Below, piece after piece: positions 32,501-35,500 of a stretch of 64,000 nucleotides of DNA. Source of the DNA: Escherichia coli (lineage in GTDB: Bacteria > Pseudomonadota > Gammaproteobacteria > Enterobacterales > Enterobacteriaceae); the NCBI RefSeq assembly GCF_024298765.1, contig NZ_CP101210.1; one strand, written 5' to 3'. The position numbers are program-made. Numbering within the stretch: position 1 is the stretch's first letter; each line of letters opens with the position of its first letter.

Positions 32501-35500
32501 AGGCGCCGGCCTGAAGCGGGCGACTCAGGGCAAACGCACCTTCTTCTGTGGTGGCACCATTCTGTGCATCCACAACCCGGATACCCTGTCCGGAGGTTGC
32601 CACCCCGAGGTTACTGTTTCCGACATTTGTAAACGCAAGCCAGGTTTTGCCGGTTGCCTGACCACCATTAATCACCAGCTGGTCAGAGGCATTGCTGCCA
32701 TCAAGGCGAACACGCATATTGATGGTGCCACCCTGACCGGTGAGGTTACTGGTGGTCAGTTTATGGAACGTTACCGGGGCGTCGCCTTTTGCAACAGCAC
32801 GGCTCAGGACGGCATCCTGTGTCGTCTGATTATCAAAGCGAATCTCCCCTGCGTTAACAATATCGCCGGTACTGACCACATCACCATTCAGTACCATGCT
32901 GGCGCCTTTACTGAGCTGTGTTCTGCCACTCAGACTTCCCCCGGCAGCCAGCGTCAGTGTTCCACGATGTCCGACAGTGGTGTTGCCAGCCTGTCCCCCG
33001 GCATTAACCGTAAAGCTGCCGCCATTTTCCAGCAGCAGGCCGCTGGCCTGACCGGATATGCCATCAATACTGAACTTACCGCTGGCATTGGTCCCCTCAA
33101 CAGTGGCACCACTGTCTGCAATCAGGGCACCACCGGATGTCATGGTGACACCTGTCGCCTTACCACCGGCAGACACTGCCAGGGTTCCGCCGTCATCCAC
33201 CCGTGTTTTCTGCGCTGAATGGCCTTCCAGTACATCCAGGCGACCGCCGGACTCCAGAACAACGCCGTCAGCCTTACCGTTTTCCACCGTGAAATTGCCC
33301 AGACGGTTGCTGCCAAGAACCGTTGCCGCAGTACTGGTGACCAGTGCTCCACCCTGTTTCAGGGTGACATTCGTGGCTGTACCACCGGCGTTCACCTGCA
33401 GTTTGCCTTTCTGGTTAACGGTGGTGAAATCCGCCAGACCACCTTCCTTGACAATCTGCCAGCCGTCACTGTTTACAACCGTGTCAGAGGCTGTGCCTCC
33501 GTTGTGCACATACTGGTAACCGCCATTCAGTGTGGTATCCAGCGCATGCCCGTGTACCGTCTGGTCGCCGCCGGCATAAACCACAGTGGTATTTGCTGTT
33601 CCTTCAATAGCCACAATCTGACGACCATTTTTATTGATGGTGGTACGTACGGCATTTCCGCGAACAAACTGCCCGGTATCACCATTTTCTGCATCCGGTC
33701 CCCCTTCCGCGCCGGTATTCACAACCGTGTCGGTTGCCACTGCGCCGGATTTGACGGCCTGCCAGCCCTTCTCATTAATGACAGTACCCGTTGCAATCCC
33801 GCCTTCATGTACCCACTGCTCACCGCCGTTCAGAGTGGTGTTCACTGCCTGCCCCTGAAGGCTCTGTCCGCCTCCGGCACTGATAACCGTGTCTGAAACG
33901 CTTCCTCCGGCATTCACTCTCTGAAGACCACCACCGGTGACAGTAGTGTTGTTGGCGGTACCGCCATTTTGTATCCATTGGCCGCCGGTATTGGCCTCGT
34001 TATCCGGCCCATACTCCAGCCCGGTACTGATGGTCATTCCGTTGGCCGTACCGAAGACAATCTGGTTGTCATGATTTGTCAGTGTTCCGTCGTTCACGGT
34101 TTCTCCCGCCTGTACAACCGTGTCAGCAGCCAGTGCCGGGACTGATGTGACAGCAGCAAGAGACAGCGCAACCGCCACACCGGCGCGTTTTCCCCGTGAG
34201 CGGGCCAGTTCGGAAGCCACCACCAGGGTGCCCGTAATGTGATTCCATACCAGCCTGTAGCTGGTGTTCAGATGTCGTTTCATCAGCTTTTCCTTACAGA
34301 GGGTGAATAAAAAAGCCGGTACCCACAAAAGTGGATACCGGCAGGTACAAAACAGCATGGTCAGATAAAGTGGTTTTTCCCGGACATAAATGTTTCCCCT
34401 CTCTCATCCGCCAGAGAAGTATCAGTCCGTTGTGTGCAATTCCGTTCTGCATGATGAAGAGATTCAGCTGCCTTTTCGCAGACCATTAACCACTATAAAC
34501 GATCGATAGTAACGATCGATACCTGTTTTATCGATCGTTTTATTCTATTAACAGCAAGGCAGTCACGCAAGAGAAAGAGGTGGATATGAGGGGGGTGTAT
34601 CATGTTTTCAGTTGGTTAACGCAATGTAATCAGGCATTTCCCTGGCAGACTGTTCAGAAGAAAATCCAGTTCCATACAGCGCGGGCAACAGAGACCACCG
34701 AGTCACGGACGGCACGCAGAACCGTGCGTGCAACAGAGGCAATACAGACGCTCTCCGCCGTGTCAAATATCCGGTCCACCGCACCGGTAAACTGTTCACG
34801 GGCCTGAGACCGGACAGATTCCGTGCGCAGCTCGTCCTGCAGGCGGGTCATCAGGGGACTGGCGGCATGGTCGGGAAGCGCTGTCATGAGCGCACTGACC
34901 AGCGTATCCAGTTCCCAGCCGGTGCAGGCCGATACGGCCACAACCGGATGTACGGGCCGGAACAGCCGGAATACCGCATCTGTTTTCTCACGAATGTTCT
35001 GTGCCTGTGCGGGAGAAGGCTGAATACCGGCCATATCCCATTCATGGCAGGGCTCCGTTTTGTCGGCCTGCGTCACCACAAACAGCACCCGCTGATGTCC
35101 CCGGTGCAGGATGTGTCGCCAGAAATACTCATCCACAGACAGGGCGCGGTCATCGGCTTTAATCAGCCACAGCACCAGGTCCAGTTCGGGCAGAATGTCA
35201 CGGTACAGGGCTTCATACTCTGCATCCCTGTCCCGGCTCTCGCCCACCCCGGGCAGGTCAGTGATAACCATGCTGTGACCGTGGCCACTCAGACGGAAGC
35301 GCCGCACTTCCCGGGTGCCGGCGTGAACATCACTGACCGGGGTGACCTCCCCCTGAAACAGCGCATTACAGAGTGAGGATTTACCGGCCCCGCTTTTACC
35401 CATAATGCCAATCACGGGTTCGTGACTGGTGAGTTTGCGCAGATGTTCCAGGATGTGACGGGAAAGTGAGTAAGGCAGGGAAGAAAGTGGTTTTTCAATT

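What the first reader, a model, noticed from the sequence alone, without database searches (positions are those of the whole stretch)
34498..34540. Ag43 phase-variation switch is intact
Three GATC sites within about 40 bp, embedded in CGATCGAT-type palindromes, lie in the leader region upstream of flu, as described for the Dam/OxyR epigenetic switch of agn43. Together with the intact 948-aa gene this predicts phase-variable autoaggregation.
Basis: partly seen in the sequence, partly recalled or inferred. Interest (0 to 1): 0.35.

Follow-up and report, generated by a model that had tools for sequence, protein, structure and literature searches.

The report
Antigen 43 Dam/OxyR on-off switch
This is the well-known methylation-based on/off switch in front of the E. 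coli clumping adhesin gene flu (antigen 43); every sequence element known to matter is present here, so the finding is correct but ordinary.

Summary
Three GATC sites (34501-04, 34514-17, 34533-36), each inside CGATCG, lie upstream of a minus-strand 948-aa Ag43 gene (34283..31437).

Their 19/13-bp spacing is identical to the K-12 agn43 switch. The family signature occurs once in the window and in none of 100 shuffles.

Read on the minus strand, the region contains:
- a -35 TTGCGT, a 17-bp spacer and a -10 TAGAAT;
- two OxyR half-sites (8/10 each), 32 bp centre to centre, the spacing canonical for reduced OxyR. One overlaps the -10 and GATC-I; the other is bounded by GATC-II and GATC-III;
- a 253-nt leader that matches Rfam IS102/IsrC (70 bits) and ends in an intrinsic terminator.

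In 16 E. coli alleles all 12 GATC columns and 18 of 20 OxyR-consensus columns are invariant, against 9 of 25 other columns.

The gene has all four autotransporter modules. Its passenger is about 97% identical to UTI89 Ag43 (PDB 7KO9), a slow aggregator.

The core is found in 3948 of 5426 complete E. coli genomes. This is an already known system of low interest. Actual phase variation, and the presence of dam and oxyR in the host, were not testable.

Two side observations:
- the island around the switch is strongly depleted of GATC;
- the same switch module precedes unrelated cargo genes in other Enterobacterales.

The parts
34565..34570 (-). -35-like hexamer TTGCGT
   Evidence: Read. It lies 17 bp upstream of the -10 and aligns with K-12 TTGTCC in the conserved CTCTTG context. 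It matches the consensus at only 3/6, so the generic promoter scan did not call it.
34542..34547 (-). -10 hexamer TAGAAT
   Evidence: It is identical in K-12 and in 15 of 16 E. coli alleles sampled. One allele (L006) has TAGGGC.
34534..34548 (-). OxyR half-site A, ATAGAATAAAACGAT (8/10 to ATAGnTnnnAnCTAT). It overlaps the -10 and the GAT of GATC-I.
   Evidence: It is identical in K-12. It is present at the same register (-12..+3) in all 13 switch variants examined.
34533..34536 (.). GATC-I (Dam site). Its G is the mapped transcription start in K-12 (recalled from Wallecha et al. 2002, not re-read).
   Evidence: The first position of the Rfam IS102 model aligns 2 nt upstream, at 34538.
34514..34517 (.). 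GATC-II (Dam site), 19 bp from GATC-I
34502..34516 (-). OxyR half-site B, ATCGTTACTATCGAT (8/10), with GATC-II and GATC-III at its two ends. It lies 32 bp centre to centre from half-site A.
   Evidence: The 32-bp spacing is described as canonical for reduced OxyR in PMC4856963.
34501..34504 (.). GATC-III (Dam site), 13 bp from GATC-II
34302..34538 (-). agn43 leader, equivalent to the IsrC / IS102 RNA
   Evidence: Rfam RF00124: 70.4 bits against a gathering score of 46, E = 2e-11, full model length. The leader is 253 nt from GATC-I to the ATG.
34309..34342 (-). Intrinsic terminator in the leader: a 12-pair hairpin GCCGGTATCCAC-TTTT-GTGGGTACCGGC followed by T6, ending 26 nt before the start codon
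   Evidence: It is conserved in K-12. PMC5389530 states that flu is controlled by antitermination of IsrC.
31437..34283 (-). flu/agn43 CDS, 948 aa. Shine-Dalgarno AAGGA at 34295-34291.
   Evidence: Translation. Pfam ESPR, AIDA x4, AC_1 and Autotransporter beta. Residues 52-613 are about 97% identical to PDB 7KO9, UTI89 Ag43. The gene is annotated as an Ag43/Cah family adhesin in strain 13P460A.
31387..31414 (-). Terminator-like hairpin (GCCCCGGTC...GACCGGGGC plus T5) directly after flu
   Evidence: Read
34654..35526 (-). YeeP-like GTPase gene immediately upstream, on the same strand

Best explanation
This is the canonical Dam/OxyR epigenetic phase-variation switch of the antigen 43 gene (agn43/flu). 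It sits in a CP4-44-like genomic island of E. coli, in front of a UTI89-like (class C4) 948-aa allele.

A sigma-70 promoter (TTGCGT, 17 bp, TAGAAT) starts transcription at or next to GATC-I.

OFF state: an OxyR tetramer in its reduced conformation occupies two half-sites 32 bp apart. One lies over the -10 and GATC-I, the other is bounded by GATC-II and GATC-III. This represses transcription and shields the three GATCs from Dam.

ON state: Dam has methylated the three GATCs, OxyR cannot bind, and the gene is transcribed.

Switching: each replication produces hemimethylated or unmethylated DNA over which Dam and OxyR compete again. This gives heritable but reversible ON and OFF lineages.

Second layer: transcripts then face an intrinsic terminator at +196..+227 of the 253-nt leader. 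This yields the short IsrC RNA unless it is read through.

Shown here: all the sequence elements, their homology to K-12 and their conservation.
Inferred from K-12 literature: OxyR binding, methylation protection, the start site, switching, and attenuation.
For: - GATC positions and spacing are identical to K-12.
- The family signature is unique in the window and absent from 100 shuffles.
- There are two 8/10 OxyR half-sites 32 bp apart. This is the only such pair in 64 kb, and the spacing is canonical for reduced OxyR.
- In 16 E. coli alleles sampled by similarity, 12/12 GATC columns and 18/20 OxyR-consensus columns are invariant, against 9/25 other columns. The hypergeometric P is 7e-5.
- The core is present in 3948 of 5426 genomes, nearly always between a GTPase gene and an Ag43/Cah gene.
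- The Rfam IS102 hit and the terminator support the leader layer.
- The autotransporter architecture is complete and the passenger is about 97% identical to a crystallised Ag43.
- The mechanism is as described in PMC3764049, PMC4872104, PMC2909390 and PMC13337833.
Against: - No experiment or methylation data exist for this sequence.
- The 15-bp spacer between GATC-I and GATC-II differs from K-12. K-12's weak central half-site ACGATCAATATCTAT (6/10) is ACGATCGATAAAACA (2/10) here.
- The oxyR-derepression data I could read concern CFT073 agn43b, which has the K-12-type spacer.
- The -35 is weak (3/6).
- dam and oxyR are not in the window.
Confidence: 0.9

Rival explanations
1. The switch looks intact but is functionally biased or locked in this allele. 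The spacer and the central half-site differ from K-12 and the -35 is weak. OxyR occupancy could therefore be too weak (mostly ON) or expression too low, and no visible phase-variable aggregation would result.
For: The spacer differs at 9 of 15 positions from K-12 and the central half-site drops from 6/10 to 2/10. UTI89-type Ag43 aggregates slowly even when over-expressed. No experiment on this spacer type was found in the papers I could read.
Against: This spacer type is the commonest allele. 837 records match the 66-bp core at 99% or more, and 2386 match at 95-99%. Its GATC and OxyR-consensus columns are held invariant while neighbouring columns vary. That pattern is hard to explain for a non-functional switch. 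Half-sites A and B are unchanged at all consensus positions.
Confidence: 0.1
2. The main product of the switch-controlled promoter is the short IsrC/IS102 RNA, which terminates at the leader hairpin. flu output is then set mainly by a second, antitermination step, so an ON switch is necessary but not sufficient for Ag43 production.
For: There is a full-length Rfam IS102 match and a strong intrinsic terminator 26 nt before the ATG. [quoted passage not shown]
Against: This complements the switch rather than replacing it. In K-12, ON cells make abundant Ag43. No antitermination factor or signal can be identified from the sequence. The leader uORF is not conserved as a peptide and lacks a Shine-Dalgarno sequence.
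Confidence: 0.25
3. The GATC cluster is a chance by-product of short palindromic repeats with no regulatory role.
For: Two other three-GATC clusters within 40 bp exist in the window, inside a coding sequence.
Against: The signature is absent from 100 shuffles. It is homologous to the K-12 switch. All GATC columns are invariant across 16 alleles. The architecture recurs across genera.
Confidence: 0.01

Closest known systems
E. coli K-12 agn43 (flu) regulatory region, the Dam/OxyR phase-variation switch (Henderson & Owen 1999; Haagmans & van der Woude 2000; Waldron 2002; Wallecha 2002)
   Same: It has the same -10 and the same three GATCs with 19/13-bp spacing. Half-site A is identical, and half-site B is identical at all consensus positions. 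The terminator hairpin and Shine-Dalgarno sequence are the same. The flanking genes are the same (YeeP-like GTPase upstream, Ag43 downstream).
   Different: The 15-bp I-II spacer and the variable triplet of half-site B differ. The middle 150 nt of the leader cannot be aligned, and the leader is 253 nt against 222 nt. The gene is the 948-aa UTI89/Cah-length form, about 83% identical in DNA to the 1039-aa K-12-type allele.
Salmonella/P22 gtr Dam/OxyR switch (Broadbent et al. 2010, PMC2909390)
   Same: It has pairs of GATCs 13 bp apart sitting at the two ends of an OxyR half-site. Methylation blocks OxyR, and OxyR blocks Dam.
   Different: gtr has four GATCs and three half-sites upstream of the promoter. 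OxyR acts as activator or repressor depending on which pair of half-sites it occupies. Here there is one binding configuration overlapping the -10 and +1, and it is repressor only.
Salmonella opvAB Dam/OxyR switch (Cota et al. 2015, PMC4856963)
   Same: OxyR half-sites lie 32 bp centre to centre, overlap GATCs, and work independently of OxyR oxidation state.
   Different: opvAB has four half-sites and four GATCs upstream of the -35, and OxyR is needed for the ON state.
IS102 / IsrC small RNA (Rfam RF00124)
   Same: Full-length match above the gathering score, with the same 5' end at GATC-I and the same 3' terminator.
   Different: The central part is diverged, with large insertions relative to the model.

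Membership tests
agn43-type Dam/OxyR phase-variation switch | Three GATC sites in the promoter-proximal leader with K-12 spacing (19 and 13 bp) | tested here: met
agn43-type Dam/OxyR phase-variation switch | An OxyR binding site overlapping the GATCs (consensus half-sites ATAGnTnnnAnCTAT) | tested here: met
   Two half-sites score 8/10 and lie 32 bp apart. This is the only such pair in the window. The spacing is canonical for reduced OxyR. This is a sequence-level test only.
agn43-type Dam/OxyR phase-variation switch | A sigma-70 promoter whose -10 and +1 are covered by the OxyR site | tested here: met
   The -10 TAGAAT lies inside half-site A. The position of +1 is taken from K-12 literature (recalled) and from the 5' end of the Rfam model.
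agn43-type Dam/OxyR phase-variation switch | It controls an Ag43-family self-associating autotransporter gene | tested here: met
agn43-type Dam/OxyR phase-variation switch | OxyR binds unmethylated but not Dam-methylated DNA, and the GATCs are unmethylated in OFF cells | not testable with these tools
   Needs EMSA or footprinting and per-read 6mA data
agn43-type Dam/OxyR phase-variation switch | The host encodes Dam and OxyR | not tested
   Neither gene lies in the part of the window annotated through L002. I did not look for them in any genome. From general knowledge, both are core E. coli genes.
Ag43/Cah autotransporter adhesins | Extended signal peptide, AIDA-repeat beta-helix passenger, autochaperone and 12-strand beta-barrel translocator in one uninterrupted ORF | tested here: met
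   Pfam ESPR 6-52, AIDA x4, AC_1 488-599, Autotransporter 673-924. Residues 52-613 align end to end with 7KO9.
Rfam RF00124 IS102/IsrC | Score at or above the curated gathering threshold over the full model | tested here: met
   70.4 bits against 46, model positions 1-206 of 206

The most novel reading that the evidence does not exclude
The switch lies in a zone kept free of GATC by selection. flu, the upstream GTPase gene and hsdM have 0 GATC against 5.6, 3.3 and 8.1 expected under synonymous-codon shuffling. flu alleles 17-22% diverged also have none. On this reading the zone insulates the three regulatory sites from processive Dam, SeqA spreading or MutH, and so tunes switching rates.

The evidence does not exclude this but leans against it. 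The same switch works next to GATC-normal cargo. In other genera, and in CFT073 agn43b, it has GATCs within 54-170 bp.
Probability: 0.1. Interest if true: 0.45.

Novelty: already known. Interest (0 to 1): 0.1.

Why it matters
It matters little beyond annotation. The result confirms that this strain carries a sequence-intact, probably phase-variable Ag43 locus of the UTI89-like class. That is relevant to biofilm and aggregation phenotypes, and to anyone picking single colonies of this strain, because ON and OFF lineages behave differently (PMC3764049). The switch is a textbook system found in about three quarters of complete E. coli genomes.

Tried and rejected
1. Leader uORF. A 52-codon ATG ORF (34452..34294) runs through the terminator hairpin, which suggested translation-coupled antitermination. 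I rejected this. It has no Shine-Dalgarno sequence. In the EDL933-type leader a 1-nt indel changes the frame and the peptide. In K-12 the corresponding frame simply runs into flu.

2. GATC desert as a requirement of the switch. The depletion is real. However, it covers the whole island backbone, including hsdM and the 26154-30969 segment. It is absent from the dynamin-type cargo behind the same switch. It is not kept in C. werkmanii, E. asburiae or CFT073 agn43b. An island-wide, phage-like avoidance of GATC is more likely.

3. Compact OxyR site. Reading the OxyR site as the compact 37-bp motif (half-sites separated by N7) fits K-12 weakly (6/10 plus 8/10) but not this allele (2/10). The extended N17 arrangement fits all variants.

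4. Primary papers. I could not retrieve Wallecha 2002, 2003 and 2014 or Kaminska 2010; none is held. The +1 position, the -16..+42 footprint and the details of leader termination therefore rest on recollection and on secondary citations.

5. Literature searches for Dam/OxyR experiments on the Cah/UTI89-type regulatory region found nothing usable. One search on 'IsrC' was wasted on clinical-trial registry numbers.

6. The generic promoter scan found no promoter, because the -35 is 3/6.

Full report
**Observation**

GATC occurs at 34501-34504, 34514-34517 and 34533-34536. Each site is inside CGATCG. On the + strand an 11-bp perfect inverted repeat, AACGATCGATA/TATCGATCGTT, spans 34511-34539.

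Its ATG is at 34283 and its stop at 31437, giving 948 codons with no interruption. The sites are therefore upstream of it.

Three GATCs close together are not remarkable in themselves. The window has two other triplets within 40 bp, both inside a coding sequence.

Two things are not due to chance. The architecture CGATC-N12-ATCGATCG-N7-CGATCG occurs once in the window and in none of 100 dinucleotide-preserving shuffles. The three sites are also the only GATCs between 31304 and 38225.

**What it is**

The 411 bp covering the intergenic region match 4019 of 5426 complete E. coli genomes. In nearly every case the match lies between a 'GTPase family protein' gene and an 'Ag43/Cah family autotransporter adhesin' gene.

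The window is 99.96% identical to strain 13P460A over 27030-51224. In that strain the gene order is:
- hsdR-hsdS-hsdM, divergent from the rest;
- the YeeP-like GTPase gene;
- Ag43;
- DUF932, antirestriction, JAB/RadC, YeeU and CbtA.

This is a CP4-44-like island.

Compared without gaps to K-12 W3110, the window has the same -10 (TAGAAT) and the same GATC spacing of 19 and 13 bp. It also has the same terminator hairpin and ribosome-binding region. The spacer between GATC-I and GATC-II and the middle of the leader are different.

**Anatomy on the minus strand**

- -35: TTGCGT, 34570-34565.
- Spacer: 17 bp.
- -10: TAGAAT, 34547-34542.
- GATC-I: 34536-34533.
- GATC-II: 34517-34514.
- GATC-III: 34504-34501.

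I scored the region against the OxyR half-site consensus ATAGnTnnnAnCTAT. Two 8/10 matches result:
- Half-site A, ATAGAATAAAACGAT (34548-34534), covers the -10 and ends in GATC-I.
- Half-site B, ATCGTTACTATCGAT (34516-34502), has GATC-II and GATC-III at its two ends.

Their centres are 32 bp apart. The opvAB paper calls that spacing canonical for the reduced form of OxyR (PMC4856963). It is the only pair of half-sites scoring at least 8/10 at 31-33 bp spacing in the 64 kb. In shuffles, 7% have one such pair.

The compact N7 arrangement fits K-12 only weakly (6/10) and this allele not at all (2/10).

From my recollection of Wallecha et al. 2002, which is not held in the library, transcription in K-12 starts at the G of the upstream GATC, and OxyR(C199S) protects -16 to +42. 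In window coordinates that would be 34552-34495, which encloses both half-sites. Consistent with this, the first position of the Rfam IS102 model aligns to 34538.

**Conservation**

I took 15 E. coli loci by BLAST similarity across the identity range, and added CFT073 agn43b.

All keep the three GATCs at 19/13 bp spacing. In the -12..+36 region:
- 12 of 12 GATC columns are invariant;
- 18 of 20 OxyR-consensus columns are invariant;
- only 9 of 25 remaining columns are invariant;
- the hypergeometric P is 7e-5.

The triplet in the middle of half-site B is hypervariable (ACT, TAT, GTC, GCA, ACC, GAT, GGT, GCT and others) while its flanks never change. This is the expected signature of selection on Dam sites and OxyR contacts.

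The 66-bp core is present in 3948 of 5426 genomes. 837 records match at 99% or more, so this spacer type is a common allele.

**Leader**

The leader is 253 nt from GATC-I to the ATG. The region 34538..34302 matches Rfam RF00124 (IS102/IsrC) at 70.4 bits, against a gathering score of 46, over the full model.

A 12-pair GC-rich hairpin (34342-34315) followed by T6 lies 26 nt before the start codon. It is conserved in K-12.

PMC5389530 states, citing Wallecha et al. [quoted passage not shown]

A 52-codon uORF that crosses the hairpin is not conserved as a peptide and has no Shine-Dalgarno sequence. I reject it as a coding feature.

**Gene**

Pfam finds ESPR (6-52), four AIDA repeats, the type-1 autochaperone (488-599) and the autotransporter beta-domain (673-924).

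Residues 52-613 align end to end with PDB 7KO9 at about 97% identity. 7KO9 is the UTI89 Ag43 passenger, class C4. That variant autoaggregates when expressed, but more slowly than the EDL933 or CFT073 Ag43a variants.

The 948-aa length is the normal length of this class. Nissle, SMS-3-5 and others have the same 2847-bp gene.

A terminator-like hairpin follows flu directly (31414-31387). There is therefore no agn43-yeeR-irmA operon here, unlike in CFT073.

**Mechanism**

The mechanism comes from the literature on K-12:
- OxyR bound to the unmethylated site represses transcription and blocks Dam. This is the OFF state.
- Methylation of the GATCs blocks OxyR. This is the ON state.
- After replication the two proteins compete again, and switching occurs at about 1e-2 to 1e-3 per generation.
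- dam mutants are locked OFF and oxyR mutants are locked ON.

Everything the sequence can show agrees with this.

Three things are not shown:
- that OxyR binds this spacer variant equally well;
- the switching rates;
- the phenotype.

The oxyR-derepression data in UPEC that I could read (PMC4807369) concern strains whose tested allele, CFT073 agn43b, has the K-12-type spacer.

**Side observations**

(a) GATC depletion. The region 26154-38225 holds 7 GATCs against about 47 expected. Synonymous-codon shuffles gave the following:

| Gene | Observed | Expected | P |
|---|---|---|---|
| flu | 0 | 5.6 | 0.0015 |
| GTPase | 0 | 3.3 | 0.0065 |
| hsdM | 0 | 8.1 | <0.0005 |

Six flu alleles that differ by up to 22% all have 0 GATC. 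Placing their substitutions at random would create 3.5-6.7 in the more diverged pairs (P = 0.0005-0.03). CFT073 agn43b has 2.

The depletion is not tied to the switch. A dynamin-family gene behind the same switch has 10 GATCs in 2.4 kb. Switches in other genera, and in CFT073 agn43b, have GATCs within 54-170 bp.

I favour an island-wide avoidance like that described for enterobacteriophages (Deschavanne & Radman 1991, recalled).

(b) Portable switch module. The switch pattern scanned over one genome per species gave 63 hits. The enterobacterial ones are in Citrobacter, E. albertii, Enterobacter, Sodalis and an Enterobacteriaceae MAG.

These, and E. coli locus L007, keep both half-sites at the same register. 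They precede different cargo:
- a dynamin-family GTPase, RdcB-like and patatin operon;
- small secreted proteins;
- an H-NS-like protein.

The non-enterobacterial hits are probably chance matches or CGATCG-rich repeats, and I did not examine them.

**Verdict**

The observation and the interpretation are correct. The system is textbook and widespread. Novelty: already known. Interest: 0.1.

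Noticed in passing
window 26154-38225 (flu, GTPase, hsdM, hsdS and the DUF932-to-CbtA backbone): Strong GATC depletion: 7 sites against about 47 expected. 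flu, the YeeP-like GTPase gene and hsdM each have 0 GATC, against 5.6, 3.3 and 8.1 under synonymous-codon shuffling. Six diverged flu alleles also have 0 and CFT073 agn43b has 2. By contrast, the CFT073 yeeR-like gene has 17 in 2.5 kb. The depletion looks island-wide rather than tied to the switch.
   Followed up: partly
L007 4001-4060 (E. coli 2017.09.02CC); L010 6447-6483 (E. albertii); L027, L051, L026, L009 (Citrobacter); L030 (Enterobacter); L046/L047 (Sodalis); L057 (Enterobacteriaceae MAG): The same three-GATC, two-OxyR-half-site module (half-site A over a -10-like hexamer, half-site B bounded by GATCs 13 bp apart, gap of 16-17 bp) precedes unrelated cargo. Examples are a dynamin-family GTPase, RdcB-like and patatin operon, small secreted proteins, and an H-NS-like protein. 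It looks like a portable epigenetic switch cassette. I did not check whether these loci have been described.
   Followed up: partly
L006 4008-4013 (E. coli CDE6306): One natural allele keeps all three GATCs and both half-sites, but its -10 is TAGGGC instead of TAGAAT. This is a candidate promoter-down variant, and a contrast to the intact -10 in the window.
   Followed up: no
window 45269-45365 and 45583-45607: Dense GATC clusters (six sites in about 100 bp, and three in 25 bp) lie inside the LutB/LldF-family (ykgF-like) coding sequence, according to the 13P460A annotation. They show that GATC triplets alone are not diagnostic of a switch.
   Followed up: no
window 34294-34452, minus strand: A 52-codon ATG ORF in the leader runs through the terminator hairpin and stops 10 nt before the flu ATG. 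It has no Shine-Dalgarno sequence, and its frame and peptide are not conserved in EDL933-type leaders. It is probably not coding.
   Followed up: yes
window 35790-41807, plus strand: A complete type I restriction-modification system (hsdM, hsdS, hsdR) lies divergently next to the GTPase-flu pair. SMS-3-5 also has an hsdM at this position. The specificity of the hsdS is unknown.
   Followed up: no
window 31110-31436: flu is followed by its own terminator-like hairpin and a DUF905-like remnant carrying three irregularly spaced GATCs (31251, 31274, 31300). The yeeR-irmA genes that are co-transcribed with agn43 in CFT073 are absent here.
   Followed up: partly
window about 24123-27034 and 51224-61509, compared with L002: The window is not strain 13P460A itself. 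It lacks that strain's ISEc12 (IS21-family) insertion near the DUF5983 gene. It also carries about 10 kb between 51224 and 61509 where 13P460A has an IS1.
   Followed up: no
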